Assembly: GCA_964503795.1 (NCBI GenBank)
Contig: CAZDBT010000003.1
Location: 1-63,661 of the forward strand
From: an uncultured Candidatus Saccharibacteria bacterium
GTDB taxonomy: Bacteria; Patescibacteriota; Minisyncoccia; UBA6257; WO2-44-18
Direction of reading: 5' to 3'
DNA length: 63,661 nucleotides
This document shows positions 950 to 36,925 of this stretch, in pieces (positions within the stretch are counted from its first letter, which is position 1; every line of letters begins with the position of its first letter). The translations under genes and the position numbers were made by a program. A model generated the notes under the pieces. That model worked only from the letters and a program-made list of their open reading frames with translations. It was not told the DNA's origin and ran no database searches.

Positions 950-1909
950 ATGGATAAGCTGTTGCACAAAAAGATTTCCGTTGTAATTCCTTGTTATAAC
1001 GAGCAGGGCAACATAGAGGAACTCTACAACCGTCTTACGGCTGTACTGGGTAAGTTAGTCTCCGATCACGAGTTGATCTTCGTGGATAACCACAGCACCG
1101 ACCAGACCCGGGAAATTTTGCGTCGATTGGCGGCCAAAGACAGGCGGCTGATTGCCCTGTTTTTTTCCCGTAATTTCGGTCATTCCCAATATGGTTTTAC
1201 CGCCGGGAGCGAATATGCCAACGGTGACGCGGTAGTTTGGTTGGATGCCGATCTACAGGACCAACCGGAGCTGATCGAACAGTTCGTTGAGAAATGGAAA
1301 GAAGGTTACGACGTTGTTTATGGGGTGCGAACTAAGCGGCGGGGCAGTTGGTTTATGAATATCGGCTACAAGACTTTCTACGCGTTATTCCGTAAATCAG
1401 CCTTTATGGATATTCCGAGGGACGCCGGCGATTTTTCTTTGATTGACCGGAAAGTTATCAACGTGATCAATGCCATGCCGGAACGGGATCGATTCGTGCG
1501 TGGTTTGCGGGCCTGGGCCGGGTTCCGGGCAATCGGCGTCAGTTATCACCGCGATGCTCGTCACGCAGGTAGAACCTCCAATAATCTTATTAAAAGCATT
1601 TGGTGGGCGAAGAAAGCTATCTTTTCTTTTTCCTATGCTCCTATAGAAGTTATTTTCTACGCTGCCCTGGCGACGTTTTGTGTTTCAGTTTTCGCTATCC
1701 TTTTTTATGTTTGGTCTTTCCTGTTCGGCTCCGGAGTTCCCAGGGGTTTTACCAGCCTGATGCTGGTGATCTTATTTTTTGGATCGGCCCAACTGCTTTC
1801 CATCAGCATTCTCGCCGAATATATTTCCCGCATCTTTGAAGAGGTTAAGCAGCGGCCTCAATATGTTGTTGAAGAGATCCTTAATGACCGAAACAAAAAG
1901 AATGCCTAG
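950..1909 (+). CDS. Family-2 glycosyltransferase, polyprenyl-phosphate sugar transferase type (ArnC/GtrB/DPM1-like)
   Basis: VVIPCYNEQGNIEEL, FVDNHSTDQT and DADLQD motifs. Two C-terminal TM helices (FSFSYAPIEVIFYAALATFCVSVFAILFYVW, LMLVILFFGSAQLLSISILAEY). Confidence 0.8.
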   Translation: MDKLLHKKISVVIPCYNEQGNIEELYNRLTAVLGKLVSDHELIFVDNHSTDQTREILRRLAAKDRRLIALFFSRNFGHSQYGFTAGSEYANGDAVVWLDADLQDQPELIEQFVEKWKEGYDVVYGVRTKRRGSWFMNIGYKTFYALFRKSAFMDIPRDAGDFSLIDRKVINVINAMPERDRFVRGLRAWAGFRAIGVSYHRDARHAGRTSNNLIKSIWWAKKAIFSFSYAPIEVIFYAALATFCVSVFAILFYVWSFLFGSGVPRGFTSLMLVILFFGSAQLLSISILAEYISRIFEEVKQRPQYVVEEILNDRNKKNA

Positions 1910-2726
1910 TTCTATTGAACAACTCAAAGAACACGCTAGGAATGTGCGCCGTAGCGTCATTGAGATCGCTACACCGGTACGGAGTTCTCACACGGGCGGC
2001 GCCTTTTCCGCTACCGATCTGTTGGTCGCGCTGTATTTTGAGATCTTGAAGATCGATCCTAAGGATCCGAAAGATCCGGACCGGGATATTTTTATTTACA
2101 GCAAAGGCCATTCATCCTCGGCGCTTTATTCCACCCTGGTGGAGCGGGGCTTCGCCGGCCGGGAAATTTTGAAAGAATACTATGTTGATGGCGGACGCCT
2201 TTCCGGTCACCCGGTGATCAATAATATGCCGGGCGTGGAAGTCTCCACCGGTTCTCTGGGGCATGGTCTGCCGATCGGAGTAGGCATGGCCCTGGCCAGG
2301 AAGGCGGATAAAAAAAGCTCCCGGGTATTTGTGATGGTTTCTGATGGAGAGTGCGACGAAGGTTCGGTCTGGGAAGCAGCCATGCTGGCCGGTTTTACCA
2401 AGCTGGATAATTTGACTGTGATCGTTGACTACAACAAGATCCAGAGTTTGGCCCATGTCGCCGAGGTATTAGACCTAGAGCCGTTCAAGAAAAAATGGGA
2501 AGCTTTCGGCTGGTCCGCGCAAGAGATCAACGGACACGATTTCAATGAGATCCTGGGAGCGCTCGGGAAATTGCCGTTGGAAAGCGGCAAGCCCAGCGTG
2601 GTTATCGCGCACACCATCAAAGGCAAAGGAGTTTCCTTTATGGAGAACAAGGTCGCCTGGCATTATAAGTCCTTAGATGATCCGAAGGATTATCAAAAGG
2701 CACTGGAAGAGATCAACCGATCATGA
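1884..2726 (+). CDS. Transketolase-like TPP enzyme, N-terminal (pyrophosphate-binding) subunit; glycan-locus copy
   Basis: SHTGGAFSATDLLVALYF, GSLGHGLPIGVGMALA and SDGECDEGSVWEAAMLAG motifs. The start is uncertain (ATG 1884 or 1902); the ORF-track start 1779 lies inside the GT2 gene. Confidence 0.8.
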   Translation: MTETKRMPSSIEQLKEHARNVRRSVIEIATPVRSSHTGGAFSATDLLVALYFEILKIDPKDPKDPDRDIFIYSKGHSSSALYSTLVERGFAGREILKEYYVDGGRLSGHPVINNMPGVEVSTGSLGHGLPIGVGMALARKADKKSSRVFVMVSDGECDEGSVWEAAMLAGFTKLDNLTVIVDYNKIQSLAHVAEVLDLEPFKKKWEAFGWSAQEINGHDFNEILGALGKLPLESGKPSVVIAHTIKGKGVSFMENKVAWHYKSLDDPKDYQKALEEINRS

Positions 2727-3640
2727 GAGCCGCTTTTCTCAACGGACTGATGGAGCTAGCCGAAAAAGATGAACGAATCTTCCTTTTAACGGGGGATCTG
2801 GGTTTCGGTGTGTTAGAGCCGTTCCAGGCGAAGTTTCCGGATCGATTTTTGAATGTCGGCGTGGCGGAACAGGATATGATCGGTATTGCCGCCGGCCTGG
2901 CGCTTTCAGGCAAGGTGCCGATCGCTTATTCTATCGCCACCTTCGTTTCGTTGAGGCCGTATGAGTTCATTCGCAACGACGTTTGTTATCAGAATCTGAA
3001 CGTGAAGATCGTTGGCGTGGGCGCCGGGCTTTCTTATTCGCAATACGCGGCGACCCATCAATCCATTGATGACGTGGCGGCGATCCGGGCTTTGCCCAAC
3101 ATCGCCATTTTAAATCCGGGTGACCCGATAGAGACCGACCTGGCGTTAAAAGCGGCCATGGATCACGTTGGGCCGGTTTATTTACGCATCGGAAAAAAAG
3201 GAGAGCCGAATATTCACTCGGCGCCGCCCACCTTCACTATTGGCAAAGCTATCACCTTGCAGGACGGCAAAGACATTACCGTGATCGCTACGGGAAATAT
3301 GCTGGAAAATGCCAGCAAGGCGGTGAAGATTCTGGAGGCAGATAAGTTGTCGGTGCGATTTATCAGTATGCCGACCGTGAAACCTCTGGATGAAGAAACA
3401 GTGAGAAGGGCGGCCAAAGAAACAAAAGCGATCGTAACCGTTGAAGAAAACTTTCTTAACGGCGGATTAGGGACGGCAGTGGCGGAAGTCTTGGTTTCCA
3501 ATGATCTGCCGAAAGTTAAATTCCTCAAGATCGCCCTTCCTCACAAGTATCCGGCCGAGATCGGCTCGCAGGAATATATGCGAAATCTTTATGGTTTGAT
3601 GCCGGCGCAGATTGCCGAGAAGATCAGAACTTTCTTATAA
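2723..3640 (+). CDS. Transketolase-like TPP enzyme, C-terminal (pyrimidine-binding) subunit; glycan-locus copy
   Basis: FLNVGVAEQDMIGIAAGLALSG and HQSIDDVAAIRALPN motifs. ATGA overlap with the N-terminal subunit. Paralogous to 53177-54166. Confidence 0.85.
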   Translation: MRAAFLNGLMELAEKDERIFLLTGDLGFGVLEPFQAKFPDRFLNVGVAEQDMIGIAAGLALSGKVPIAYSIATFVSLRPYEFIRNDVCYQNLNVKIVGVGAGLSYSQYAATHQSIDDVAAIRALPNIAILNPGDPIETDLALKAAMDHVGPVYLRIGKKGEPNIHSAPPTFTIGKAITLQDGKDITVIATGNMLENASKAVKILEADKLSVRFISMPTVKPLDEETVRRAAKETKAIVTVEENFLNGGLGTAVAEVLVSNDLPKVKFLKIALPHKYPAEIGSQEYMRNLYGLMPAQIAEKIRTFL

Positions 3641-3641
3641 A

Positions 3642-4802
3642 ATGAATTTATCCAAGTTGTCGGAAAAATTGAAGTCTAGTTCCCGGGACGCTCTCTTGGC
3701 GAAAGCGGTCGAGCTGGAGCGGAGCGGTAAGAAACTTGTTCATTTTGAGATCGGCGAACCGGATTTTTCTACTCCGGAGCCCGTCGTGAAGGCCGCCATT
3801 GATTCCTTGTTGAGGAATGAGACCCACTATGATGTTGCCGGAGGTCTGCCCGAGTTGCGTTCGGCGGTTGCGAAGAGCGTGAAAAATAGTTTGGGTTTCC
3901 TGCCGGATCAGGATCAGATCGTTGTTGGCCCAAGTCCGATGCTGATCTATTTTCTGATGCAATGCGTGGCGGACGCGGGCGACGAGGTAATCGTCCAGGA
4001 GCCGGCCTATGCCCGGTTCTTCTCGATCCTGAATATTTTATCGCTGAAAGCGGCAACCGTTCCGATCTATGAAGAGCAGGGTTTTCATATGACGGAAAAA
4101 GACCTGAAGAAAAGGATCAATCCTAAGACGAAGCTTTTAGTAATTAACTCGCCGCAAAATCCTACCGGCGCTATGTTAACCAAAGAAGAATCGGAGATGA
4201 TCGCGGCGGTCGCTAGGGAAGAGAATATGTTCGTGCTTAGCGATGAGGTGTATGACCGGCTTATCTATGAAGGCAAGCACTACTCTCCGGCAACGGAAGA
4301 TCATTGCCGGGAGCGGACAGTGATCCTGAACAGCTTGTCTAAGACCTATGCCATGACCGGTTGGCGGGTTGGCTATCTTGTGGGGCCGGCCGAATTGATA
4401 TCAAAGATCAATATTTTAGTTCGCAATACTTTATTTAGTTTGCCGGTCTTCGTCCAAAGAGCTGCCGTTGAAGCATTGACCGGAGACCAGCGGCCGATTA
4501 AGTTAATGGTTGAAGAATACAAGAAGCGTCGCGATGTTTTTGTCGCTGGCCTCAACGAACTCCCGGGGGTCTCCTGCGTCAAACCTGGAGGAGCGTTGTA
4601 TGTGTTCCCAAATATCCGGAAGACCGGACTGACCAGCCAGCAATTTGTGGATATGATGCTGGAGAAAGCCGGAGTGCTTTTTTCCCCCGGCACAGATTTT
4701 GGAAAGGCCGGCGAGGGACATGTACGGGGTTCGTTCTGTGTTCCGATGGCGGACATCCGTGAAGGTCTGAAGCGGATGAAAGAAGCCTTATCCAAAAGAT
4801 AG
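3642..4802 (+). CDS. Class I/II PLP-dependent aminotransferase (AspC-like)
   Basis: NSPQNPTG, SDEVYDRLIYEG and SLSKTYAMTGWRVGY (PLP lysine) motifs. ATG 3642 sits 1 nt after the upstream stop. Confidence 0.8.
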   Translation: MNLSKLSEKLKSSSRDALLAKAVELERSGKKLVHFEIGEPDFSTPEPVVKAAIDSLLRNETHYDVAGGLPELRSAVAKSVKNSLGFLPDQDQIVVGPSPMLIYFLMQCVADAGDEVIVQEPAYARFFSILNILSLKAATVPIYEEQGFHMTEKDLKKRINPKTKLLVINSPQNPTGAMLTKEESEMIAAVAREENMFVLSDEVYDRLIYEGKHYSPATEDHCRERTVILNSLSKTYAMTGWRVGYLVGPAELISKINILVRNTLFSLPVFVQRAAVEALTGDQRPIKLMVEEYKKRRDVFVAGLNELPGVSCVKPGGALYVFPNIRKTGLTSQQFVDMMLEKAGVLFSPGTDFGKAGEGHVRGSFCVPMADIREGLKRMKEALSKR

Positions 4803-4806: not shown

Positions 4807-6129
4807 ATGGAAGAAAAAATAAAAAAACTGATCCATTCTCTGATCCGGGAATATTATCAGGAAAAATTTGCCGGTCAGAAGTTTATTCCAGGCGAGACGC
4901 ACATTCCCGCTTCGGGTAAGGCTTTCGACGAGCGGGAATTATTGGCGATGACCGACGCGGTTCTGGATGGCTGGTGGACCGAGGGCCGTTTTGCCGCCGA
5001 ATTTGAAAAGAAATTCGCTGAATTTGTGGGTGTGCCATATTGCATTACCACCAACTCCGGTTCTTCCGCCAATCTGCTTGCCGTCTCTGCGCTGACTTCG
5101 TTCCACCTGGGCAAGCGGAGATTGCAACCCGGCGACGAAGTGATCACGATCGCGGCCGGCTTCCCGACCACGATCAATCCGCTGATCATTCATCGCCTGG
5201 TTCCGGTGTTTGCCGACATTGATCCCAAGACTTTTAATATTGATATAGAAAAAATGAAAAAGCTGGTGTCCAAAAAGACCAGAGCCATTTTTATGCCGCA
5301 CAATTTAGGCAATCCTTTTAATCTGGACGAGGTCCGCAAGATCTGTCGCCGCTACAAGCTCTGGCTGATCGAGGATTGCTGCGACGCGCTCGGTAGCACC
5401 TACCGAGGCAAGCGGGTAGGCGGATTCGGCGATCTGGCCACTTTCAGTTTCTACGCCGCCCATCATATTACCACCGGAGAAGGAGGAGCCGTTGTTACTA
5501 AAGATCCGAAATTGGCGGCCATTGTCCGTTCTTTCCGGGACTGGGGCAGAGAATATTGGTTTCGTACCGGAGAAGACACCAAGCGCGACAAAGGACTTGG
5601 TTCCCGCAAGCACGGCAAGTTGCCGGCCGATTACGACAATAAATTCATCTTTTCCGAGATCGGTTACAATCTCCGGCTTACCGACATGCAGGCGGCGCTG
5701 GGTGTGGTTCAACTTTCCAAGCTTCCACAATTTATAGAGCATCGAAAGAAGTCATATCAGATGCTGCGTGATAAACTTTCCGGGTTTAGCGATCTAATTT
5801 CTTTCCAAGAGCCGGAAAAACACAGCGACCCTTCTTGGTTCGGATTTCTGATCACTTTGAATCCCAAATGCCCGTTTACCAGAAAAGAGATGATCGATTA
5901 TCTACTAAAGCTAAATATCGGGACGCGAATGTTGCTGGCAGGCAATCTGCCGAAACAGCCCTATATGCAAACTTATAAAGTAAAATCACGCAGCGGAAAT
6001 TTAAGCGCCACCGACTACGCGCTTTCCAATTCTTTTTGGGTTGGCGTACACCAGGGGATAGACAAGACAAGGCAATCCTACCTGATCAACGCGCTTATTG
6101 ATTTTTTGAGCCGTTTTCCTAGGAAATAG
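4807..6129 (+). CDS. DegT/RfbH-family PLP/PMP enzyme (NDP-4-keto-6-deoxyhexose 3-dehydratase-like)
   Basis: 440 aa. FIPGETHIPASGKAFDERE, NSGSSANLLA and FSFYAAHHITTGEGG motifs (His at the usual PLP-Lys position, as in RfbH/ColD). RDWGREYWF replaces the Cys-rich stretch. Confidence 0.75.
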   Translation: MEEKIKKLIHSLIREYYQEKFAGQKFIPGETHIPASGKAFDERELLAMTDAVLDGWWTEGRFAAEFEKKFAEFVGVPYCITTNSGSSANLLAVSALTSFHLGKRRLQPGDEVITIAAGFPTTINPLIIHRLVPVFADIDPKTFNIDIEKMKKLVSKKTRAIFMPHNLGNPFNLDEVRKICRRYKLWLIEDCCDALGSTYRGKRVGGFGDLATFSFYAAHHITTGEGGAVVTKDPKLAAIVRSFRDWGREYWFRTGEDTKRDKGLGSRKHGKLPADYDNKFIFSEIGYNLRLTDMQAALGVVQLSKLPQFIEHRKKSYQMLRDKLSGFSDLISFQEPEKHSDPSWFGFLITLNPKCPFTRKEMIDYLLKLNIGTRMLLAGNLPKQPYMQTYKVKSRSGNLSATDYALSNSFWVGVHQGIDKTRQSYLINALIDFLSRFPRK

Positions 6130-6733
6130 ACCGGCGGGGCTTGGCAAAGATACAAACGCTTTCAATGCCGATCATTTTCAAGTCCACTACTTTTTCGATC
6201 GTGAGAACACTGCCGACCATATTCAGTAGATCGTTTTTAGGCCGGATATAGTCTCCGCGGTCTAGCGAATTCATAAATCGTCCGATCAAATTGGTCGGTT
6301 TTTGCTGTATCGGATCGCAAATAACCACATATTTAGAAGCGATCCGGTTCAGAGTGGTTAATAGTGTTTTATTTTCCTGATCGGAGAGATGGTGAGTGGC
6401 ATCGATCAGAATGGCGATATCGTAAGAGGAATCACGGATCGCCGCAGTGTTGGCATCGGCGCAAAGGAATTTCTTTTTTTCATTTCCGTAAAGTTTGCTG
6501 GCGGCATCAATGTATTTCCGGCTTAAGTCCACCCCCAGATAATCAGCATCGGTGATGGCGCTGTATTGTCCGGCCCCGCAGGCAATGTCGATCACAGACA
6601 TTTTTTCAGTGATGCCGAAATTCCGGATAACCTTCATCCGGGTACGGTAGAGACCGAATAAATAATCCTCCAGCCTGCGGAAATTTATCCAAATGGAAGA
6701 ATTTTCCAGGATCCTAGTGAAAAATCTGATCAT
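6119..6733 (-). CDS. Class I SAM-dependent methyltransferase
   Basis: Motif I VIDIACGAGQY. This is the only minus-strand gene in the 950-26146 block. Its 3' end overlaps the RfbH-like gene by 11 nt (convergent). Confidence 0.7.
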   Translation of the reverse strand: MIRFFTRILENSSIWINFRRLEDYLFGLYRTRMKVIRNFGITEKMSVIDIACGAGQYSAITDADYLGVDLSRKYIDAASKLYGNEKKKFLCADANTAAIRDSSYDIAILIDATHHLSDQENKTLLTTLNRIASKYVVICDPIQQKPTNLIGRFMNSLDRGDYIRPKNDLLNMVGSVLTIEKVVDLKMIGIESVCIFAKPRRSIS

Positions 6734-8166: not shown

Positions 8167-8652
8167 ATGATCAAGATAGAGTTTTTAACCAGGCCGACCC
8201 CGCAGGACCTGAAAGATATCAACCGCCTTATTCCGCAGATCGCCGAAAAACCCCATTTGTTGTCTATGAAAGAGTTGAAGCGGGTGACCGATCAACAAGA
8301 GAGCTGTCGGGTGATCGTTGCTCGCGATTCCAAGACCAGCCAGATCGCCGGTATGTGCGCTCTCACGCTGGTCCGAGTTCTTACTGGTCTACTTGCGATG
8401 GTTGAGGACGTAGTGGTGGACAGCAACTACCGTGGCTTGGGCATCGGCCAGATGTTGACGCAGAAAATGATCGACGTCGCCAAGGCAAAGAGAGCTAAGC
8501 ATATAAGCCTGACCACCAACCCGAAGCGCGAAGCCGCCAACGCTATGTATAAGAAAATTGGATTTTTCCTGAAGGAAACTAATTACTACCGGATCAATCT
8601 TTATCTTCCTAAGCCGAATTTTAAAAAACCCGAGGGCCCGAAGATGCGCTAA
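8167..8652 (+). CDS. GNAT family N-acetyltransferase, paralogue 1
   Basis: VVDSNYRGLGIGQMLTQKMIDVAKAKRAKHISLTTNPKREAANAMYKKIGF (acetyl-CoA binding Q/RxxGxG/A). Clear paralogue of 13631-14086. Confidence 0.8.
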   Translation: MIKIEFLTRPTPQDLKDINRLIPQIAEKPHLLSMKELKRVTDQQESCRVIVARDSKTSQIAGMCALTLVRVLTGLLAMVEDVVVDSNYRGLGIGQMLTQKMIDVAKAKRAKHISLTTNPKREAANAMYKKIGFFLKETNYYRINLYLPKPNFKKPEGPKMR

Positions 8653-31752: not shown

Positions 31753-32475
31753 ATGTATCGTTTTAATAAAAAACAAGTTTTGTCCGTGGCGGTGTCGGTC
31801 GCAGTGTCGATGTTCGCAGTGGCGTTGATCGCGTCGGCCACTACCTATATAGATACCGCCAGTGTTGCCGTAGCTACTGATACCCCAGGCGCGGCAGTCA
31901 GCGTTAAGGGCGCGGCTATTTTTGAAGGGTTCGTTCGGGCTGACTATTTCACCTCAACCTCTACGGGTAATTCTTGGTTATTCGGCAATCTCGGTCTTGG
32001 TACCACCACTCCCGGAACCAGATTAGATGTAGCCGGTTTTGTTAACGTTAAGGGTAATTTGAACATCGCCGCTACCTCCACCTTGGGCGACTTAAACGCT
32101 ACCTCTACCGTTACTGTTGGTACATCGTCCCCAACGGCGGCCGATCGTTTAACTGTTGATGGCATGGCTTTAGTTGCCGGTCACGTAGAAAGCCAGGGCA
32201 AGCCACCGGTATTGAGCAGCTGCGGAACTGCGCCGAGCGTTATTGGCACTGATCAAACCGGAAAGATCACCATCGGAAGTTCGGCGAACGCCGCTGGTAC
32301 AGCCTGTATCGCTACTTTCGTTAACCCTTGGAGGAATGCCCCGACCTGCGTAATCGCCAACGAGACCAGCAATGAAACCATTATGGTTGTTTCAAGCGCG
32401 ACTGCGATGACTTTGAAGGCTACCACCACGCCGAGCGCCTACGTTATTGGTTATCACTGCTGGGGCTTCAAATAG
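31753..32475 (+). CDS. Secreted/anchored hypothetical protein
   Basis: 240 aa. N-terminal TM/signal segment. GNLGLGTTTPGTRLDVAG motif, as seen in tail-fibre-like surface proteins. Four Cys in the C-terminal third. Confidence 0.5.
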   Translation: MYRFNKKQVLSVAVSVAVSMFAVALIASATTYIDTASVAVATDTPGAAVSVKGAAIFEGFVRADYFTSTSTGNSWLFGNLGLGTTTPGTRLDVAGFVNVKGNLNIAATSTLGDLNATSTVTVGTSSPTAADRLTVDGMALVAGHVESQGKPPVLSSCGTAPSVIGTDQTGKITIGSSANAAGTACIATFVNPWRNAPTCVIANETSNETIMVVSSATAMTLKATTTPSAYVIGYHCWGFK

Positions 32476-32503: not shown

Positions 32504-33466
32504 ATGAAAAAACATTTACTGCTTGCCTTAACGTTATTAGTTTTGCCGGTTACTGTTCTGGCAGCTTCCGATAGCGTCACGCTAAACGCCGGCATAACTC
32601 TAAAGGTGACCGTCGCCGGTAATTCTATGTCTTTTACCGTTGACGGCAATGATAAAGTAGAAACGCTTCAAGTTCAGGGCGGTTCTATAGTTGCCGGTAT
32701 GCAATCCGGCTCTACTTTGTCAATTACTTCCGCCGACAGAACCACCTTCACTTATTCTGTAGGAGGGGCGGCTGCCAGTTTTAATTGCTCGGCCTCTAAT
32801 TCTACTTTGAGTATTACTTCACCCAGCGCTCAAACCGTCACAATAACTCCCACTGGTAGCGCGTGCACAGTTTCTGGCGGTGGTCCTGGAGGAGGAGGCG
32901 AGGGAACGCCAAACCCACCTCCGCCATCCCCACAACCTTCCCCTGCGCCATCTCCCGAGCCTTCTCCGGCCCCAGAGCCTTCTCCATCGCCAACGGGCGG
33001 CGGTGGCGCTCCGGTAGTTTCCAATGTGCCAGCGGCGACCAACGCCAATCCTTCCCCTGTAGCCCAACTGGTATCCCCTGTGTTTAATGCTAATCTCCAG
33101 CCCGGCTCTAAAGGGGATGATGTTAAGCGTTTACAGCAGCTTTTGGCCACCGATAAGGAAATTTATCCTGAAGGTCAGGCCACCGGATATTTTGGTAATC
33201 TGACTAAGACTGCTATCGTCAGATTCCAGCTGAAATATGGCGTGATCAAGAAGGCGACTGATCCCGGCAATGGCAATCTTGGTCCGAAGACCCGCGCTAA
33301 ATTGAAGGAGATCTTTGGTAATGCGGCAGGAGTTCCGACCCCGGCAGCTGCACCGACCCCATCTCCAGCTTCTTCCAACGCAGCCGAAAAGCTACAGCAG
33401 TTGCAGACCTTGCTCCAGCAGGTACAAGCTTTACAGGCCGCTCTAAAAGCCAAGCAAGGCTACTAA
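32504..33466 (+). CDS. Secreted protein with Pro-rich linker and C-terminal peptidoglycan-binding (PG_binding_1) domain
   Basis: Signal peptide MKKHLLLALTLLVLPVTVLAA. GDDVKRLQQLLATDKEIYPEGQATGYFGNLTKTAIVRFQLKYG matches the PGB1 pattern. Confidence 0.7.
   Translation: MKKHLLLALTLLVLPVTVLAASDSVTLNAGITLKVTVAGNSMSFTVDGNDKVETLQVQGGSIVAGMQSGSTLSITSADRTTFTYSVGGAAASFNCSASNSTLSITSPSAQTVTITPTGSACTVSGGGPGGGGEGTPNPPPPSPQPSPAPSPEPSPAPEPSPSPTGGGGAPVVSNVPAATNANPSPVAQLVSPVFNANLQPGSKGDDVKRLQQLLATDKEIYPEGQATGYFGNLTKTAIVRFQLKYGVIKKATDPGNGNLGPKTRAKLKEIFGNAAGVPTPAAAPTPSPASSNAAEKLQQLQTLLQQVQALQAALKAKQGY
32876..33013 (+). repeat. Low-complexity Gly/Pro-Ser linker coding repeat
   Basis: GGGPGGGGEGTPNPPPPSPQPSPAPSPEPSPAPEPSPSPTGGGGAP. 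It generates spurious ORFs in other frames. Confidence 0.8.
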
Positions 33467-33541: not shown

Positions 33542-34243
33542 ATGAAGGGTGTTATTTTAGCTGGTGGTTTAGGGACAAGGCTTCATCCGGTAACTTTGGA
33601 AATGCCTAAGCCGCTGCTCACAGTTAAACGTAAGCCGATCCTGAATCACCTTTTGGATCTTTTCGGCCGTCACGGAATAGATGAATCGCTGGTTTTGGTG
33701 AACAAAAATCATACCGAAGATTTTCAATGGTGGCAGAAGCGATATGAAAAAGAATTAAAGGGAAAGCTAGAGTTGGTAGCAGAACCGGAGCCGCTGGGCA
33801 CTTTTGGCGGCTTAAAGCTTTTTTCCGACAAGCTCAATGAGGCATTTATTTTATCCAACGGCGATGAGTTGAAGGACTTTGACCTATCGGCGTTGATCGC
33901 CGCCCACAAGGCCAATCCTGCAAAGCCGGCGGCGACCATCGCCTTGGTGAAAGTGGAGAAGCCTTCTGATTATGGTGTGCCGGTAATGGAGGGTGATGCG
34001 ATCAAGGAATTTTTGGAAAAGCCGCTGAATCCGCCATCGGATTTTGTCAGCTCCGGTATTTATATTTTGGAGCCGGAAGTTTTTCAATATGCCGATTGGA
34101 ATAAGGGATTTTTGATGATCGAAAAGGATATTTTCCCTAAGCTGGCCGCCGCCGGAAAGCTGGCTGGCCATAAATTCCCGAATGCCCGTTGGTACGATTG
34201 TGGTACGTTTGCTCGGTGGGAAAAAGCTATAAAAGAGTGGTGA
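33542..34243 (+). CDS. Sugar-1-phosphate nucleotidyltransferase
   Basis: MKGVILAGGLGTRLHPVTLEMPKPLL (GxGTRL P-loop-like motif). Confidence 0.8.
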   Translation: MKGVILAGGLGTRLHPVTLEMPKPLLTVKRKPILNHLLDLFGRHGIDESLVLVNKNHTEDFQWWQKRYEKELKGKLELVAEPEPLGTFGGLKLFSDKLNEAFILSNGDELKDFDLSALIAAHKANPAKPAATIALVKVEKPSDYGVPVMEGDAIKEFLEKPLNPPSDFVSSGIYILEPEVFQYADWNKGFLMIEKDIFPKLAAAGKLAGHKFPNARWYDCGTFARWEKAIKEW

Positions 34244-34268: not shown

Positions 34269-35591
34269 CTACTTAATTACTAATGACTTAATGACGAATA
34301 ACTGATTTTTAATTTGCGGCCAGACGTGGAGTTTTTGGATAGAGTTCATTTTGCGCCAGATCAGGAAGTTGGTGATGATCTGGGTGATCAAAGTGGAGAT
34401 GGCTGCTCCTTCAATGCCGAACATCGGGATGAGTAAAAAGTTGAATAGCACATTGCCCAAGGCGGAGACGGCAACGAATCCAATAAAGCTTTTGTGGGCG
34501 TCAAAGGCGAAAACTGCATTGCCGATAAGGGCGGAAGGATAAACGATCAGGATCGTGAATATCAGGATGCGGAAGGTGTTCACTGCCGGCAGATATTCGG
34601 TCCCGAACATCAGATGAATTATCGGGTTTGCAAAAATTATTCCCAGCAGCACTACCGGAACGGCCAACAAGATCACTCCGGCTAATGCTTTTTCCAAAAT
34701 ATTTTTTACCAGTAAAGGAGAAACCTTTGCCAACCTAGCCATCACCGGAAAGACGCTGGAGGCGAGCAGAGTAGGCAACACGTAAAGCAATTGGATCGGT
34801 TTTTGGGCCGCTGAATAATAACCGACTTCGGCGGCGGAGCGCAGCCAGCCTACCATAATTATGTCTGTGTTCAGGTTGATCGCTCCCATAATGCCGAGCA
34901 AGCCGAAGGGCCAGGCGGTCTGTAAAATGTCCCTCACTAGCTGTCTATCAAAATGGGTGAAGATGTTGCGGAAATGGTGGCGGAGGGCGTAGGCAATAGC
35001 GATCAGGCCAAGACCGCTGCCAATCGCGTAAGCCACCGCCATTGATTCGGGAGTTTTGTAGATAACCAAGAAAATTATTCCCAGGATCGTGATCGCGGCG
35101 TTAGTAAAAATATTTATGCCTGCCTCTATCTCCATTTTTTCCAGCGCGCGGCTTAAAGCCGAGCCAAGATCACGCAAAGTATCAAAGGCGAATACGAAAA
35201 TTAGGATCGGCATCAGCGCCGCCGCTTCTTTGAGATTGGTTAGATAGGGGAAGAAAACTACTGTAGCGATCACTAAGACCGAAAGCAGGAAGAGCTTAGT
35301 GAAAAAAGCCGTTGAAAGATAGCGATCTTTCAGGCCGGGATTACGTGACGCTTCTTTGGTAATGAGGGCGTTGATGCCGATATCGGAGAAGATGGTCAGG
35401 AATGCCGCTACGCCCAAGGCGTAGGAGAAAGCGCCCCAGCTGGCGGCTCCCAGAACGCGGGCGGAATAGATCACGATCACTGCCCGCAGCAGGCGGCTCA
35501 TCATCTGGCCGAAGAAGAGCCAAAAGGTGTTTTTGGCGATAGTTTGGCCGACGGTCCGATTATTAAATAACCAATCCAAGATAAAACGCAT
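34269..35591 (-). CDS. Polysaccharide flippase (Wzx, MOP superfamily)
   Basis: 440 aa, about 12-14 TM helices, typical N-terminus (TIAKNTFWLFFGQMMSRLLRAVIVIYSARVLG). Confidence 0.75.
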   Translation of the reverse strand: MRFILDWLFNNRTVGQTIAKNTFWLFFGQMMSRLLRAVIVIYSARVLGAASWGAFSYALGVAAFLTIFSDIGINALITKEASRNPGLKDRYLSTAFFTKLFLLSVLVIATVVFFPYLTNLKEAAALMPILIFVFAFDTLRDLGSALSRALEKMEIEAGINIFTNAAITILGIIFLVIYKTPESMAVAYAIGSGLGLIAIAYALRHHFRNIFTHFDRQLVRDILQTAWPFGLLGIMGAINLNTDIIMVGWLRSAAEVGYYSAAQKPIQLLYVLPTLLASSVFPVMARLAKVSPLLVKNILEKALAGVILLAVPVVLLGIIFANPIIHLMFGTEYLPAVNTFRILIFTILIVYPSALIGNAVFAFDAHKSFIGFVAVSALGNVLFNFLLIPMFGIEGAAISTLITQIITNFLIWRKMNSIQKLHVWPQIKNQLFVIKSLVIK

Positions 35592-36925
35592 TATTTAAGA
35601 TTAGTGAAAAGATACTTGATCGTTCTCAATAAAATAAAGAAATCCAGTGTTAGCGAGCGGTTTTTTAAGTAGTACATATCGTATTGAAGTTTCTCATAAG
35701 CATCTTCCACCGAGGCGCCGTATTTGTAATTGATCTGCGCCCAGCCGGTGATACCCGGACGAACCAGCAGACGAAGTTCAAAATATGGCACATCTTTTTT
35801 CAGATGAGTGACGAATTCCGGGCGTTCCGGGCGGGGGCCGACGAAAGAAAGTTCGCCACGGATGATGTTGATCAGTTGGGGAAGTTCATCAAGATGGGCG
35901 GCGCGCAGGAATTTTCCGACGGCTGTCGTGCGTTCATCGCCGGGCTTCGCCCATTGCGGGCCATTTTTTTCGGCATCGGCGCGCATTGTGCGGAACTTAT
36001 AGATCATAAATTCCTGTTCATTGCGGCCGCTGCGTTTTTGCCGGAACAAGGTCGGGCCTTTGGAAGTAATAGTTACCAGCAGGCCGATGAGGATCGCGAT
36101 AGGCAGAAGGACGATCGCTAATATCAGCGCCAGAAAGATCTCGATCGGGCGCTTAATGAACTCATAGACTTTGTGGCTCTTTGCCAGATTTTCCAGGAAC
36201 CAAACTTCCTCGAGCTCGGCCAGAGGAAGTTTTTGGAAGACTTTTTCGTAAAGTTCCGACAAGTCGAGCACTTCAATTCCCAGCACAAGGTTTTTGTAGA
36301 TCAATCTGGCGGCCTTGGAATTCTTTTTGATGTGGGCAGGAACGACGATCAGATTTACCTTGTTGCTCAAGATTATCTGCGCCAAGTGCTCGAATTCTTT
36401 ATCTTGCAGACCCTCTTTCATCCAGAACTTTACTTCATATCCCAGCTGGGGATTTTTGGCGATGTGCTCCACGACGTCTTCCACGGTTTTGTTGTAGCCG
36501 ATCATTAGGATCCGGTTTTCCGGCACACCGGCGCTTAACATTGTGTTATAGAAAGTCCGCCAGAAATAGTTGGCCAGGCCGAAAATGATCAGTACGGTAA
36601 AGAGATTGGTTTTCGGGCTGATGCCGAAGACCGGCAAGAAGTAGAATAAAATCGTGGCAATAACACCGCTGATCAGCAACAGCGATATGTATTTTTTATA
36701 AAATTCCAGGTCGTTCTTCAGACTTTTCAGATCATAAAGTCCGCCGATATAGAAAGTTACCAGCCAGATGCCGAATATGAGAGTAAATGGCCAAAAATGG
36801 GCATCTACCACTTCCCGGGAAAGTCCCTGGTAACGCACAAATAGGGTAATGGCGAGGGAGGCATACAGTATCACCAGGTCGCCCAGCAGGAGAGTGACTT
36901 GTTTCAGCTTGACACTGAAGTCCAT
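35591..36925 (-). CDS. Initiating polyprenyl-phosphate phosphoglycosyl transferase (WbaP/bacterial sugar transferase family)
   Basis: RFLRAAHLDELPQLINIIRGELSFVGPRPERPEF. N-terminal TM helices. 1-nt overlap with wzx. Confidence 0.85.
   Translation of the reverse strand: MDFSVKLKQVTLLLGDLVILYASLAITLFVRYQGLSREVVDAHFWPFTLIFGIWLVTFYIGGLYDLKSLKNDLEFYKKYISLLLISGVIATILFYFLPVFGISPKTNLFTVLIIFGLANYFWRTFYNTMLSAGVPENRILMIGYNKTVEDVVEHIAKNPQLGYEVKFWMKEGLQDKEFEHLAQIILSNKVNLIVVPAHIKKNSKAARLIYKNLVLGIEVLDLSELYEKVFQKLPLAELEEVWFLENLAKSHKVYEFIKRPIEIFLALILAIVLLPIAILIGLLVTITSKGPTLFRQKRSGRNEQEFMIYKFRTMRADAEKNGPQWAKPGDERTTAVGKFLRAAHLDELPQLINIIRGELSFVGPRPERPEFVTHLKKDVPYFELRLLVRPGITGWAQINYKYGASVEDAYEKLQYDMYYLKNRSLTLDFFILLRTIKYLFTNLK

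What the first reader, a model, noticed from the sequence alone, without database searches (positions are those of the whole stretch)
950..36925. 36-kb co-directional envelope-glycan super-locus combining nonulosonate, TagF-like, thiotemplate and Wzx/Wzy-like modules in a CPR-like genome
Seen in sequence:
- About 33 consecutive genes are devoted to glycan assembly, and they are mostly overlapping or separated by fewer than 20 nt.
- They comprise an initiating phosphoglycosyl transferase and Wzx (35591-36925, 34269-35591), an O-antigen-ligase-TPR protein, and neuC/neuA/neuB.
- They also include three TagB/TagF-like paralogues, an ArnC-like GT2 with a large polytopic membrane protein, two carrier proteins with their loaders, a NodB deacetylase, GNATs and a methyltransferase.

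Established: each module is known separately (sialic/legionaminic acid pathways, teichoic acid polymerases, Dlt and FkbH thiotemplates, Wzx/Wzy assembly). I do not know of a described pathway that unites them.

Inference:
- The locus makes a heavily decorated, NulO-containing and possibly phosphodiester-linked surface polymer or protein glycan.
- For a reduced-genome episymbiont that depends on cell-cell contact, such a large investment suggests a host-interaction surface structure.
Basis: partly seen in the sequence, partly recalled or inferred. Interest (0 to 1): 0.7.

Follow-up and report, generated by a model that had tools for sequence, protein, structure and literature searches.

The report
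Surface-glycan gene island of a Patescibacterium
A 36-kb block of about 35 tightly packed genes in a tiny-celled groundwater-type bacterium (Parcubacteria/Patescibacteria) appears to build a sialic-acid-like, heavily decorated surface sugar chain. The same gene layout recurs in many relatives but is not described in the papers I could search.

Summary
Corrections:
- 4 of the 35 genes are on the minus strand.
- 21 of 34 junctions are under 20 nt, which is similar to the rest of the window.
- There are five TagF-like paralogues, not three.
- The island probably continues past the window's left end.

A ribosomal protein and all locus homologues point to Parcubacteria-type Patescibacteria. Synteny is strong: one genome is colinear over about 40 kb. 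Of 45 long loci from GTDB species genomes that hold a TagF1 homologue, 41 have nonulosonic-acid (NulO) genes within 10 kb. A TagD-like cytidylyltransferase occurs in only 3 of all 80 loci.

The TagF-like proteins match the Tannerella NulO-transferase family better than true teichoic-acid enzymes. I therefore read them as CMP-NulO transferases, not glycerophosphate polymerases. The 632-aa orphan membrane protein has a GT-C fold and is fused to a GT2 domain in some relatives.

Best reading: a conserved core (TagF-like trio, NulO pathway, Wzy_C-TPR, Wzx) plus swappable decoration modules. No chemistry was shown. It is a new variant of a known kind, of moderate interest.

The parts
179..850 (-). 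223-aa protein with no family match; conserved left-flank neighbour. It suggests the island continues off the window.
   Evidence: No Pfam hit. 63% identical to a 222-aa gene in L003 that lies between SDR/NTP-transferase genes and the GT2.
950..1909 (+). GT2 polyprenyl-phosphate sugar synthase (Dpm1/ArnC/PgfS-like)
   Evidence: PF00535 106 bits. Best NCBIfam hits are PgfS 233 bits and ArnC 157 bits, both below their cutoffs. A hydrophobic C-terminal segment is visible in the translation. A related GT2 domain is fused to GT-C homologues.
1902..2726 (+). Transketolase N-terminal (ThDP-binding) subunit; locus-dedicated paralogue. Start could also be 1863 or 1884.
   Evidence: PF00456 145 bits. 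42% identical to the housekeeping copy at 52032-52895. Start candidates.
2723..3640 (+). Transketolase pyrimidine-binding plus C-terminal subunit; locus-dedicated paralogue
   Evidence: PF02779 and PF02780. 40% identical to the housekeeping copy at 53177-54166. Replaced by a single TPP_enzyme (ALS/YerE-type) gene in L003.
3642..4802 (+). Class I/II PLP aminotransferase
   Evidence: PF00155 222 bits. No NCBIfam equivalog cutoff reached. Conserved next to the ThDP enzyme and the E1-like gene in L003 and L004.
4807..6129 (+). E1/RfbH-like NDP-4-keto-6-deoxyhexose 3-dehydratase that lacks the Fe-S ligands
   Evidence: NF011936 583 > 423. 465 bits to Yersinia E1, 3bcx. Active-site His kept (SFYAAHHI). 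E1 'RDCYCAPGCDNTC' is 'REYWFRTGEDTK' here. Same loss in the L003 and L004 orthologues.
6119..6733 (-). SAM-dependent methyltransferase
   Evidence: Methyltransf_11 and Methyltransf_25. Orthologue at the same place and on the same strand in L004.
6801..8156 (+). TagF-like GT-B enzyme 1; proposed CMP-NulO-dependent transferase
   Evidence: PF04464 40.4 bits. NF046086 50 bits. AF2 pLDDT 90.7 with a GT-B fold. 236 homologues; all those carrying a taxon name are Patescibacteria lineages.
8167..8652 (+). GNAT N-acyltransferase a
   Evidence: PF00583 58.5 bits. 44% identical to the GNAT at 13631.
8671..9018 (+). 4'-phosphopantetheinyl transferase (AcpS type)
   Evidence: PF01648 67.5 bits.
9006..10484 (+). 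Stand-alone amino-acid adenylation enzyme (DltA-like architecture)
   Evidence: TIGR01733 380 > 317; DltA equivalog 315 < 560. PDB: NRPS A domains up to 449 bits, DltA 217-219 bits. The A4 motif HFDLS keeps the Asp.
10468..10707 (+). Carrier protein 1 (79 aa, DSF serine motif)
   Evidence: PF00550 21.7 > 20.8.
10689..11729 (+). 346-aa GNAT-domain protein with a ~200-aa C-terminal extension; candidate aminoacyl-carrier-dependent N-acyltransferase
   Evidence: Window protein weak (20.2 bits), but 14 of 14 family members hit Acetyltransf_1, best E 1.8e-9. Co-occurs with the adenylation gene in 9 of 11 loci.
11797..13374 (+). FkbH-domain protein (glyceryl-carrier loader type)
   Evidence: TIGR01686 289 > 147; HAD-IIIC 62 > 36.
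13389..13619 (+). Carrier protein 2 (76-78 aa, WDSF motif)
   Evidence: PF00550 22.4 > 20.8. Database gene call is 76 aa.
13631..14086 (+). GNAT N-acyltransferase b
   Evidence: PF00583 50.9 bits.
14089..15408 (+). TagF-like GT-B enzyme 2
   Evidence: PF04464 42.6 bits. NF046086 72.7 bits, E 3e-20. 27% identical to TagF1.
15396..16313 (+). NodB-type polysaccharide/sugar de-N-acetylase
   Evidence: PF01522 81.7 bits. Found in 23 of 80 related loci.
16317..17684 (+). TagF-like GT-B enzyme 3
   Evidence: PF04464 29.9 bits. NF046086 46 bits. 34% identical to TagF1.
17727..19625 (+). GT-C-fold membrane glycosyltransferase; orphan family seen only in Patescibacteria
   Evidence: No Pfam, NCBIfam or PDB sequence hit. 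AF2 pLDDT 91.2. The 20 matches with E <= 0.001 are all GT-C: PglB, STT3, DPY19, AftA, ArnT. Invariant E64/D67/G68. Three homologues carry an N-terminal GT2.
19683..20861 (+). NeuC-type hydrolysing UDP-sugar 2-epimerase
   Evidence: TIGR03568 358 > 236.
20861..21577 (+). CMP-nonulosonate synthetase (NeuA/LegF/PseF class)
   Evidence: PF02348 97.5 bits. PseF 185 < 206.
21579..22523 (+). D-2-hydroxyacid dehydrogenase; role unknown; conserved partner of the NulO genes
   Evidence: PF02826 179 bits. No equivalog cutoff reached. Found in 35 of 80 loci.
22513..22950 (+). Cupin-domain protein
   Evidence: PF07883 39.9 bits. Found in 8 of 80 loci.
23076..24020 (+). EamA/DMT transporter 1
   Evidence: PF00892 28.8 bits, cutoff 28.2.
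24067..24951 (+). EamA/DMT transporter 2
   Evidence: PF00892 77.5 bits; weak SLC35F hit.
25004..26146 (+). NulO synthase (NeuB family plus SAF domain); sugar type unresolved
   Evidence: PF03102 238 bits. NeuB_NnaB 264 < 400 and PseI 215 < 340. PDB: SpsE 139, NeuB 139, PseI 126 bits.
26127..27212 (-). Distant TagF-like GT-B paralogue 4
   Evidence: Weak PF04464 (19 bits) and NF046086 E 3e-10. BLASTP E 2e-7 to TagF3.
27361..28437 (+). Distant TagF-like GT-B paralogue 5
   Evidence: No family hit. 23% identical to paralogue 4 (E 2e-12) and E 4e-5 to TagF3.
28512..29414 (+). Short NDP-sugar dehydrogenase (N-terminal and central domains only)
   Evidence: PF03721 and PF00984. TIGR03026 139 < 190. 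Conserved before Wzy_C-TPR in L022 and L070.
29431..31626 (+). Wzy_C (O-antigen ligase / O-oligosaccharyltransferase / polymerase family) with C-terminal TPR
   Evidence: PF04932 80 bits plus TPR hits. A 740-aa orthologue sits at the same place in L086.
31753..32475 (+). 240-aa Ser/Thr-rich (24%) membrane-anchored protein; possible acceptor
   Evidence: No Pfam hit. 36% identical homologue follows Wzy_C-TPR in L086.
32504..33466 (+). Secreted peptidoglycan-binding protein with a Pro/Ser-rich linker; possible O-glycosylation acceptor
   Evidence: PF01471 30 bits. The protein at the same position in L086 also has PG_binding_1 and carries a long Thr/Ser-rich linker. tblastn did not recover it at E 1e-5.
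33542..34243 (+). Sugar-1-phosphate nucleotidyltransferase; specificity unresolved
   Evidence: PF00483 140 bits. No equivalog cutoff reached.
34269..35591 (-). Wzx-type flippase
   Evidence: PF01943 137 bits.
35591..36925 (-). Initiating polyprenyl-phosphate hexose-1-phosphate transferase
   Evidence: PF02397 214 bits. TIGR03025 356 > 296.

Best explanation
The region is a modular surface-glycan island of a Parcubacteria-type Patescibacterium. It is built around a conserved core and carries optional decoration modules.

**Core (inferred mechanism)**
- The phosphoglycosyl transferase primes polyprenyl phosphate.
- NeuC, NeuB and the CMP-synthetase make a CMP-activated nonulosonic acid of the Neu/Leg (NeuC-dependent) class.
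- The three TagF/TagB-like GT-B paralogues, and perhaps the two distant ones, act as CMP-NulO-dependent transferases like the Tannerella TagB-like NulO transferases. They do not act as glycerophosphate polymerases.
- Wzx flips the lipid-linked glycan.
- The Wzy_C-TPR protein transfers or polymerises it outside the membrane. Plausible acceptors are the Ser/Thr/Pro-rich proteins encoded directly downstream.

**Accessory modules in this genome (inferred)**
1. PPTase, adenylation enzyme, carrier 1 and the 346-aa GNAT form an N-aminoacylation unit. FkbH, carrier 2 and a GNAT form an N-glyceroylation-type unit. The NodB de-N-acetylase supplies free amines and a methyltransferase adds methyl groups.
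2. An Fe-S-less E1-like 3-dehydratase, a dedicated split transketolase (a YerE-type ThDP enzyme in a relative) and an aminotransferase would make an acyl-branched, aminated 3,6-dideoxyhexose.
3. The Dpm1/ArnC-like GT2, possibly the EamA proteins, and the new GT-C-fold enzyme would add a sugar from a polyprenyl-phosphate carrier outside the membrane.

**Shown:** family and fold assignments, paralogy, synteny and co-occurrence.
**Inferred:** donors, acceptors, order of steps and the product.
For: - Family assignments.
- Conserved order: GCA_030697795.1 is colinear from the GT2 to the PG-binding protein (L004 plus L086). Compact cores in L022 and L070 read TagF3-TagF2-TagF1-NeuC-NeuA-2HADH-EamA-NeuB-NDPsugDH-WzyC-TPR-Wzx.
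- Link of TagF-like genes to NulO genes: at least one NulO gene lies within 10 kb in 65 of 80 loci and in 41 of 45 long loci. NeuA occurs in 55-57 of 80 loci and a TagD-like gene in 3 of 80.
- 32 of 32 family members hit NF046086, the BFO_1060 model (best E 6e-21). TarF, TarL and TarB models are hit by 9, 3 and 1 members.
- BFO_1060, Tanf_01245 and TFUB4_00887 are TagB-like. Knock-outs of Tanf_01245 and TFUB4_00887 showed they are needed to complete the O-glycan (PMC5420450).
- No other chain-building GT1, GT2 or GT4 genes are in the locus.
- Thiotemplate units behave as cassettes: adenylation gene with GNAT346 in 9 of 11 loci, and FkbH with carrier 2 in 6 of 7. In L029 the cassette abuts NeuC directly.
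- An FkbH-domain gene lies at the Campylobacter flagellar glycosylation locus (PMC7099621). N-glyceroyl NulOs exist and their genetic basis is unknown (PMC5378307).
- The E1-like, ThDP and aminotransferase trio is conserved, with the ThDP enzyme swapped in L003. YerE adds C2 branches to CDP-4-keto-3,6-dideoxyglucose, and transaminases can modify such branches (PMC9306805).
- GT-C fold and GT2-GT-C fusions.
- A Ser/Thr/Pro-rich PG-binding protein follows Wzy_C-TPR in both genomes examined.
Against: - No biochemical datum exists. All donor and acceptor assignments rest on context.
- The TagF-like proteins are below the NF046086 cutoff (46-73 bits against 200). Their model is a generic GT-B whose nearest solved structures are UDP-GlcNAc 2-epimerases and MshA.
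- NeuB and the CMP-synthetase fall below all equivalog cutoffs, so the NulO type is open.
- The window holds no NDP-hexose 4,6-dehydratase to feed the E1-like enzyme.
- The thiotemplate, deoxysugar and GT2/GT-C modules occur in only 10-18 of 80 related loci. They may serve a different product from the NulO core.
- PGT and Wzx lie more than 25 kb from TagF1, so their linkage could not be measured with 10-kb flanks.
- The roles of the 2-hydroxyacid dehydrogenase, the cupin and the EamA pair are unexplained.
Confidence: 0.55

Rival explanations
1. Teichoic-acid-like reading. The TagF-like enzymes polymerise polyol phosphate from CDP-glycerol or CDP-ribitol on a lipid-linked primer. The DltA-like enzyme and its carrier D-alanylate the polymer, and NulO is a side decoration.
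For: - PF04464 is passed by three paralogues.
- The profile has a weak match to TarL (E 5e-5) and 9 of 32 members weakly match TarF.
- The adenylation enzyme plus small carrier has DltA/DltC architecture.
- One relative carries a TagD-like cytidylyltransferase inside its locus (L086).
Against: - No TagD, TarI or TarJ-like gene is in the window, and a TagD-like gene occurs in only 3 of 80 loci.
- No TagO, TagA, TagGH, DltB or DltD families were found among the scanned ORFs.
- The DltA equivalog is not reached (315 < 560).
- The family matches the NulO-transferase model far better than the Tar models.
- A Wzx rather than an ABC exporter is present.
Confidence: 0.15
2. Co-located but separate pathways. 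The island holds at least two independent products. One is the NulO glycan made by the core. The other is a branched amino-deoxysugar delivered by GT2 and GT-C to another acceptor. The thiotemplate cassettes would belong to only one of them, or to a non-glycan product.
For: - Module frequencies differ widely: NulO genes in 65 of 80 loci, thiotemplate genes in 18 of 80, GT2/GT-C in 11 of 80 and the deoxysugar cassette in 10 of 80.
- Cassettes are swapped or rearranged between genomes.
- GT2 plus GT-C systems elsewhere (Arn, Pgf) work independently of Wzx/Wzy pathways (established knowledge).
Against: - Modules are interleaved, not juxtaposed. For example, TagF1, GNAT, PPTase ... FkbH, CP2, GNAT, TagF2, NodB, TagF3, GT-C follow one another with gaps of 67 nt or less on one strand.
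- The same interleaving is kept in GCA_030697795.1.
- In 13 of 18 loci with thiotemplate genes, NulO genes are also present.
Confidence: 0.22
3. Direct cytoplasmic protein glycosylation. The TagF-like enzymes add NulO straight onto Ser/Thr of a secreted protein such as pilins or the linker proteins, as Maf enzymes do for flagellins. The Wzx/Wzy_C genes would serve another glycan.
For: - A pilin gene sits inside the related locus L005.
- Ser/Thr-rich proteins are encoded in the island.
- NulO transfer directly to proteins is known for Maf enzymes (titles and abstracts listed).
Against: - No Maf family hit was found.
- Wzy_C-TPR and Wzx are part of the conserved compact core next to the NulO genes.
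- The Tannerella TagB-like enzymes are needed to complete an otherwise identical protein-bound oligosaccharide; they are not direct protein glycosyltransferases.
Confidence: 0.06

Closest known systems
Tannerella forsythia general protein O-glycosylation with TagB-like Pse/Leg transferases (Tanf_01245, TFUB4_00887, BFO_1060; PMC5420450, PMC5378307)
   Same: - A NulO pathway sits next to a TagB/GT-B-like transferase.
- The NulO there carries N-glyceroyl or N-glycolyl groups.
- All 32 members of the window's TagF-like family match the BFO_1060 model.
   Different: - Scores are far below the family cutoff (46-73 bits against 200).
- There are three to five paralogues instead of one.
- The organism is a Patescibacterium.
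- Thiotemplate, GT-C and deoxysugar modules are present.
- The transferases' D/E-D/E-G and HP motifs were not verified here.
Campylobacter jejuni flagellin glycosylation locus (an FkbH-domain gene, cj1302, lies there; PMC7099621)
   Same: - NulO biosynthesis genes are clustered with an FkbH-domain gene.
- The locus is highly modular and variable between strains.
   Different: - No Maf transferases and no flagellum here.
- Here there is an additional amino-acid adenylation enzyme, a dedicated PPTase, Wzx, Wzy_C and a PGT. This implies a lipid-linked route rather than direct flagellin modification.
Wall teichoic acid synthesis (TagB/TagF/TarL) with Dlt D-alanylation
   Same: - Pfam Glyphos_transf domain.
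- Stand-alone adenylation enzyme plus a ~80-aa carrier protein.
   Different: - No CDP-polyol synthesis genes, TagO/TagA, TagGH or DltB/DltD.
- Tar and DltA equivalog cutoffs are not met.
- Soluble GNATs follow the carriers instead of an MBOAT.
Yersiniose-type acyl-branched 3,6-dideoxyhexose pathway (E1/RfbH plus the ThDP enzyme YerE; PMC9306805)
   Same: - An E1 orthologue (465 bits to Yersinia E1) lies next to a ThDP enzyme.
- A relative has a YerE/ALS-type TPP enzyme at the same position.
- A transaminase is adjacent, and the paper notes that transaminases can modify acyl branches.
   Different: - The E1-like protein lacks three Fe-S cysteines, and no E3 reductase is present.
- In the window the ThDP enzyme is a split transketolase, implying a ketose-derived C2 donor.
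- No 4,6-dehydratase is in the window and no YerF-type reductase was identified.
ArnC/ArnD/ArnE-F/ArnT and Streptococcus mutans PgfS/PgfM systems (polyprenyl-P-sugar synthase plus GT-C)
   Same: - The GT2's best NCBIfam hits are PgfS and ArnC.
- A GT-C-fold partner is present.
- A NodB-family enzyme (compare ArnD) and DMT-type transporters (compare ArnE/F) lie in the same island.
   Different: - The GT-C protein belongs to no described family (no Pfam or NCBIfam hit).
- The GT2 and GT-C genes are 16 kb apart here, though fused in some relatives.
- Acceptor and sugar are unknown.

Membership tests
TagB/TagF/TarL CDP-polyol phosphotransferases | Match to Pfam PF04464 above the gathering score | tested here: met
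   40.4, 42.6 and 29.9 bits against 22.1 for the three main paralogues. Only the C-terminal half to two-thirds aligns. Paralogue 4 scores 19.1 (below cutoff) and paralogue 5 has no hit.
TagB/TagF/TarL CDP-polyol phosphotransferases | Match to curated TarB, TarF or TarL models at their cutoffs | tested here: not met
   Only 1, 9 and 3 of 32 family members match at all, with best E-values of 9e-3, 3e-6 and 2e-4. The PDB profile search finds TarL at E 5e-5 only.
TagB/TagF/TarL CDP-polyol phosphotransferases | A CDP-glycerol or CDP-ribitol supply gene (TagD, TarI, TarJ) and TagO/TagA/TagGH partners nearby | tested here: not met
   No TagD-like hit in the window. A TagD-like gene is present in 3 of 80 related loci. 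No such families were found among the scanned ORFs.
TagB/TagF/TarL CDP-polyol phosphotransferases | Catalytic histidine pair of TagF | not testable with these tools
   The N-terminal region does not align to TarL. The family has an invariant W179-D180 and H383-Y384. Equivalence to the TagF histidines could not be established.
BFO_1060 / Tanf_01245 nonulosonic-acid transferases | Match to NF046086 at its cutoff (200 bits) | tested here: not met
   50, 73 and 46 bits. All 32 members match, with best E 6e-21, but all are below the cutoff.
BFO_1060 / Tanf_01245 nonulosonic-acid transferases | Genomic linkage to a CMP-NulO synthetase and NulO synthase | tested here: met
   NeuA-like gene in 55-57 of 80 loci. 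At least one NulO gene in 41 of 45 long loci.
BFO_1060 / Tanf_01245 nonulosonic-acid transferases | Sialyltransferase motifs D/E-D/E-G and HP | not tested
   No Tannerella sequence was available to align. Invariant H383-Y384 and D432-G433 exist but their equivalence is unknown.
NeuC (hydrolysing UDP-sugar 2-epimerase) | TIGR03568 equivalog cutoff | tested here: met
   358 > 236.
NeuB N-acetylneuraminate synthase / PseI | Equivalog cutoffs of TIGR03569 or TIGR03586 | tested here: not met
   264 < 400 and 215 < 340. The Pfam NeuB and SAF domains are met. The protein is about equally distant from SpsE, NmNeuB and PseI.
FkbH glyceryl-carrier loaders | FkbH domain model plus an adjacent carrier protein | tested here: met
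   TIGR01686 289 > 147. The carrier lies 8-14 nt downstream. The substrate was not tested.
DltA D-alanine-carrier ligase | DltA equivalog cutoff and DltB/DltD partners | tested here: not met
   TIGR01734 315 < 560. The generic amino-acid adenylation domain is met at 380 > 317. No MBOAT or DltD family was found in the window.
E1/RfbH CDP-4-keto-6-deoxyglucose 3-dehydrase | Equivalog cutoff and the active-site His that replaces the Schiff-base Lys | tested here: met
   NF011936 583 > 423. The motif SFYAAHHI aligns with E1 SFYPAHHI; the other E1 entry, 3bb8, reads AKH at this position.
E1/RfbH CDP-4-keto-6-deoxyglucose 3-dehydrase | [2Fe-2S] cysteine ligands and an E3 reductase partner | tested here: not met
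   The Cys residues of E1 'RDCYCAPGCDNTC' are Y, F, E and K here. The same holds in two orthologues. No reductase gene is in the locus.
GT-C glycosyltransferases | GT-C fold with a conserved acidic motif near the first membrane helices | tested here: met
   pLDDT 91.2. The 20 Foldseek matches with E <= 0.001 are all GT-C, with E from 1.5e-6 to 4.6e-4 and TM 0.33-0.50. E64, D67 and G68 are invariant in 40 sequences. Their placement in the first outside loop is inferred from the secondary-structure string.
Wzx/Wzy_C/PGT lipid-linked glycan route | Presence of all three families | tested here: met
   PF01943 137 bits, PF04932 80 bits and TIGR03025 356 > 296. Whether the Wzy_C protein is a ligase, polymerase or O-oligosaccharyltransferase was not resolved.
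Patescibacteria (CPR) genome | Housekeeping marker closest to named CPR genomes | tested here: met
   L25 is 89% identical to Parcubacteria group bacterium Gr01-1014_19 and 86% to a Patescibacteria group bacterium.

The most novel reading that the evidence does not exclude
The conserved trio of TagF-like GT-B proteins is a new, Patescibacteria-centred family of CMP-nonulosonate-dependent transferases or polymerases. It would build a NulO-rich anionic polymer or mucin-like O-glycan that serves as the major surface polyanion of Parcubacteria, a functional stand-in for teichoic acids. The charge of that polymer would be tuned in the cytoplasm by carrier-protein-delivered aminoacyl and glyceroyl groups, analogous to D-alanylation but without DltB or DltD. 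A previously unrecognised GT-C family would add an acyl-branched aminodeoxysugar outside the membrane.
Probability: 0.25. Interest if true: 0.75.

Novelty: new variant of a known kind. Interest (0 to 1): 0.55.

Why it matters
Patescibacteria are mostly uncultured, have very small genomes and are thought to live attached to other cells, yet almost nothing is known about their surface chemistry. This island gives several concrete, testable leads.
- Relatives of its TagF-like gene were found in at least 132 GTDB species genomes, and most of the 80 loci examined also carry NulO genes.
- It nominates a family of candidate NulO transferases. Such enzymes are scarce in the literature.
- It offers a genetic hypothesis for N-glyceroyl and N-aminoacyl decoration, whose basis the Tannerella authors call unknown.
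- It adds an unannotated GT-C family with Rosetta-stone GT2 fusions.
- It shows an Fe-S-less E1 dehydratase paired with a recruited split transketolase.

If the product is a sialic-acid-like surface coat, that bears on how these episymbionts contact hosts or evade phages and grazers.

Tried and rejected
- Single-sequence PDB searches of TagF1, paralogue 5, the 632-aa protein and the 346-aa GNAT gave nothing useful.
- A profile of the TagF1 family against PDB found only a weak C-terminal match to TarL.
- The Foldseek search with the TagF1 model returned generic GT-B hits (UDP-GlcNAc 2-epimerases, MshA). It could not discriminate TagF-like from sialyltransferase-like.
- Typing the NulO from NeuB similarity failed. 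The protein is about equally distant from SpsE, NeuB and PseI, and below both equivalog cutoffs.
- Rfam found only the tRNA, so no riboswitch or leader is evident.
- Literature searches pairing Patescibacteria, CPR or Parcubacteria with nonulosonic or sialic acid gave no relevant paper. A search on O-antigen ligase or surface glycan in Patescibacteria also gave nothing relevant.
- The minus-strand ORFs 28434-29291 and 26892-27252 were rejected as antisense or overlapping artefacts, because the opposite-strand genes have family matches.
- Tight gene packing was rejected as a locus-specific signal, because the rest of the window is similar.
- I did not derive a full Stachelhaus code for the adenylation enzyme, so its amino acid is not predicted.

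Full report
**1. What is there**

Six-frame ORF listing and HMM scans resolve window 950-36925 into 35 genes.

Reading left to right, on the + strand unless noted:
- a Dpm1/ArnC/PgfS-like GT2;
- a split transketolase (two genes);
- a class-I aminotransferase;
- an E1/RfbH-type 3-dehydratase;
- a SAM methyltransferase (-);
- TagF-like 1, then a GNAT;
- an AcpS-type PPTase, an amino-acid adenylation enzyme, carrier protein 1 and a 346-aa GNAT-domain protein;
- an FkbH-domain protein, carrier protein 2 and a GNAT;
- TagF-like 2, a NodB deacetylase, TagF-like 3;
- a 632-aa polytopic protein;
- NeuC, a CMP-NulO synthetase, a D-2-hydroxyacid dehydrogenase and a cupin;
- two EamA transporters, then NeuB-SAF;
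- two divergent, distant TagF-like paralogues (one on -, one on +);
- a short NDP-sugar dehydrogenase;
- Wzy_C-TPR;
- a Ser/Thr-rich 240-aa protein and a PG-binding protein with a Pro/Ser linker;
- an NTP-transferase;
- and, convergent on the minus strand, Wzx and the initiating phosphoglycosyl transferase.

The corrections are these.
- Four genes are on the minus strand.
- 21 of 34 junctions are under 20 nt, with 11 overlaps and a maximum gap of 148 nt. The housekeeping part of the window is packed almost as tightly, at 13 of 23.
- There are five, not three, TagF-like paralogues.

**2. Boundaries and organism**

- To the right the island ends at 36925. A DsbA-like protein, the CCA-adding enzyme and tRNA-Pro follow.
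- To the left it is probably truncated by the window. Gene 179-850(-) is 63% identical to a gene that, in relative L003, lies between NDP-sugar SDR/nucleotidyltransferase genes and the GT2.
- Ribosomal protein L25 is 89% identical to that of Parcubacteria group bacterium Gr01-1014_19.
- All named homologues of TagF1 and of the 632-aa protein are from Patescibacteria lineages.
- The rest of the window holds a second, housekeeping split transketolase in a pentose-phosphate/glycolysis cluster.
- The 'CPR-like' label is therefore right.

**3. Synteny**

- GCA_030697795.1 (loci L004 plus L086) is colinear from the GT2 through both thiotemplate units, the TagF-like genes, a GT-C homologue, the NulO genes, Wzy_C-TPR, the 240-aa protein homologue and a PG-binding protein.
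- A scan of one genome per GTDB species with the TagF1 family profile found 132 relatives. The 80 best loci all come from genomes titled as Patescibacteria lineages, apart from a few titled only 'bacterium' and two titled Bdellovibrionales.
- Within ±10 kb of the TagF1 homologue the counts out of 80 loci are:

| Gene | Loci (of 80) |
|---|---|
| NeuA | 55-57 |
| NeuC | 51 |
| NeuB | 42 |
| TagF3 | 42 |
| 2-hydroxyacid dehydrogenase | 35 |
| TagF2 | 27 |
| NodB | 23 |

- At least one NulO gene is present in 65 of 80 loci and in 41 of 45 loci of 19 kb or more.
- Compact versions (L022, L070) read TagF3-TagF2-TagF1-NeuC-NeuA-2HADH-EamA-NeuB-NDPsugDH-WzyC-TPR-Wzx(-). This is the window's right half with the TagF trio moved next to it.
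- The thiotemplate (18 of 80), GT2/GT-C (11 of 80) and deoxysugar (10 of 80) genes are accessory cassettes.

**4. What the TagF-like proteins probably do**

- They pass Pfam Glyphos_transf, but only over the C-terminal half to two-thirds.
- The family profile reaches only TarL, at E 5e-5, among solved structures.
- A confident AF2 model (pLDDT 90.7) is a generic GT-B. Its nearest solved neighbours are UDP-GlcNAc 2-epimerases and MshA.
- Against NCBIfam, all 32 aligned members match NF046086, the 'BFO_1060 family glycosyltransferase' (best E 6e-21). Only 9, 3 and 1 match TarF, TarL and TarB weakly.
- BFO_1060, Tanf_01245 and TFUB4_00887 are the TagB-like enzymes of Tannerella forsythia. Knock-outs of Tanf_01245 and TFUB4_00887 showed they are needed to complete its O-glycan, consistent with adding the terminal Pse or Leg (PMC5420450).
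- A TagD-like cytidylyltransferase is absent from the window and present in only 3 of 80 loci, against 57 of 80 for the CMP-NulO synthetase.
- No TagO, TagA, TagGH, DltB or DltD families occur in the window.
- No ordinary chain-building GT1, GT2 or GT4 gene is in the island either.
- I therefore infer that these enzymes use a CMP-activated NulO. Membership of the BFO_1060 family is not established, because scores are well below its cutoff, and no activity was shown.

**5. The NulO**

- NeuC passes its equivalog cutoff.
- The synthase and the CMP-transferase pass only the Pfam level and fall below the NeuB, PseI and PseF cutoffs.
- The synthase is about equally distant from SpsE, NeuB and PseI.
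- Use of a NeuC-type epimerase points to the Neu/Leg configuration class rather than Pse (established pathway knowledge). The identity of the sugar is open.

**6. Decoration modules**

- The adenylation enzyme passes the amino-acid adenylation model, is nearer to NRPS A domains than to DltA, and keeps the A4 aspartate.
- It is followed by a 79-aa carrier and a 346-aa protein. All 14 members of that protein's family carry an N-terminal GNAT domain.
- FkbH (289 > 147 bits) is followed by a second carrier and a GNAT.
- A PPTase precedes both units.
- These genes travel as cassettes, and in L029 the first cassette abuts NeuC directly.
- An FkbH-domain gene lies at the Campylobacter flagellar glycosylation locus (PMC7099621).
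- N-glyceroyl NulOs exist, and their genetic basis is described as unknown (PMC5378307).
- The inference is this: carrier-bound glyceryl and aminoacyl groups are transferred by the GNATs to sugar amines, which the NodB enzyme exposes, and the methyltransferase adds methyl groups.

**7. Deoxysugar cassette**

- The DegT-family gene is an E1/RfbH orthologue (583 > 423 bits; 465 bits to Yersinia E1) with the active-site histidine.
- The Fe-S cysteines in the aligned stretch are replaced, here and in two orthologues, and no E3 reductase is present. From my own knowledge, this resembles ColD-type dehydratases.
- Next to it are a class-I aminotransferase and a ThDP enzyme. The ThDP enzyme is a dedicated split transketolase here and in L004, but a single ALS/YerE-type TPP enzyme in L003.
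- YerE adds a C2 branch to CDP-4-keto-3,6-dideoxyglucose, and such branches can be further modified by transaminases (PMC9306805).
- The cassette therefore plausibly makes an aminated acyl-branched dideoxyhexose.
- The missing 4,6-dehydratase in the window is a gap in this reading. Relatives have the SDR genes just upstream.

**8. GT2 plus GT-C**

- The 632-aa protein has no Pfam, NCBIfam or PDB sequence match.
- I found 53 homologues. Every one that carries a taxon name is from Patescibacteria or Parcubacteria.
- Its AF2 model (pLDDT 91.2) matches only GT-C enzymes at E <= 0.001: PglB, STT3, DPY19, AftA and ArnT.
- E64, D67 and G68 are invariant.
- Three homologues carry an N-terminal Dpm1-like GT2 domain that is 31-35% identical to the window's GT2. 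This fusion links the two activities.
- The NodB and EamA genes make an Arn-like analogy possible, but that is untested.

**9. Final step and acceptors**

- Wzy_C-TPR is part of the compact core.
- It is followed, here and in GCA_030697795.1, by a Ser/Thr-rich anchored protein and a secreted PG-binding protein. The linker of the PG-binding protein is Pro/Ser-rich here and poly-Thr/Ser in the relative.
- That is suggestive of protein O-glycosylation, but a wall polymer is equally possible.

**10. Verdict**

- Its teichoic/phosphodiester element is the weakest part of the interpretation.
- It is a new variant of known glycan islands. Its closest relatives in kind are the Tannerella O-glycan system and the Campylobacter glycosylation locus.
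- The searchable literature has no description of it for Patescibacteria.
- Still unexplained: the conserved 2-hydroxyacid dehydrogenase, the cupin, the EamA pair, the short dehydrogenase, and which acceptor each TagF-like paralogue serves.

Noticed in passing
window 52032-52895 and 53177-54166: A second split transketolase lies in a housekeeping cluster with GAPDH (49326), RpiB (50367), Rpe (51381), a PfkB kinase (54341) and class-II FBP aldolase (56615). The glycan-locus transketolase is a 40-42% identical paralogue.
   Followed up: partly
window 4807-6129; L003 8694-9998; L004 7970-9280: The E1/RfbH orthologues of these Patescibacteria keep the catalytic His but have lost the Fe-S cysteines in the aligned RDCYCAPGCDNTC stretch. 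The motif reads RDWGREYWF[KR]TGED.
   Followed up: yes
P0154, P0161, P0163 (homologues of window 17727-19625): In three relatives the orphan GT-C-fold protein is fused to an N-terminal Dpm1-like GT2 domain (822-844 aa).
   Followed up: partly
L003 5748-7526: At the position of the split transketolase, this relative carries a single 592-aa TPP_enzyme N/M/C (acetolactate-synthase/YerE-type) gene. This is a non-homologous ThDP enzyme swap.
   Followed up: partly
L086 4015-4527 and 15416-16714: The colinear relative GCA_030697795.1 additionally carries a TagD-like cytidylyltransferase, a second GT-C paralogue, a methyltransferase-GT2 fusion and a sugar C-methyltransferase-type gene. None of these is in the window.
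   Followed up: partly
window 28512-29414: The NDP-sugar dehydrogenase is only 300 aa, with N-terminal and central domains and no C-terminal domain hit. It is nevertheless conserved (about 61% identity) before Wzy_C-TPR in several relatives.
   Followed up: partly
window 31753-32475: The 240-aa protein has an N-terminal hydrophobic anchor and repeated 'GTTTPGTRLDV'-like motifs. It matches no family, but a homologue follows Wzy_C-TPR in L086.
   Followed up: partly
window 43308-45635: Two cupredoxin-like proteins, a CarboxypepD_reg-like protein and a lamin-tail-domain protein form a small cluster of probable secreted proteins.
   Followed up: no
window 55360-56625: A 421-aa ORF with no Pfam match sits between the PfkB kinase and the FBP aldolase in the sugar-phosphate cluster.
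   Followed up: no
window 40526-41806: A glutamine-synthetase-like protein with only modest domain scores (56 and 39 bits) lies next to a second 2-hydroxyacid dehydrogenase (39319-40515).
   Followed up: no
L005 18338-18886: A type IV pilin-like gene (N_methyl) lies inside the related NulO/TagF-like locus of Parcubacteria Gr01-1014_33. That locus also has two NeuB and two cytidylyltransferase genes.
   Followed up: no
L030, L069: Two related loci come from bins titled 'uncultured Bdellovibrionales', while all others with a taxon name are Patescibacteria. The cause may be mis-binning or mislabelling, or a transfer.
   Followed up: no
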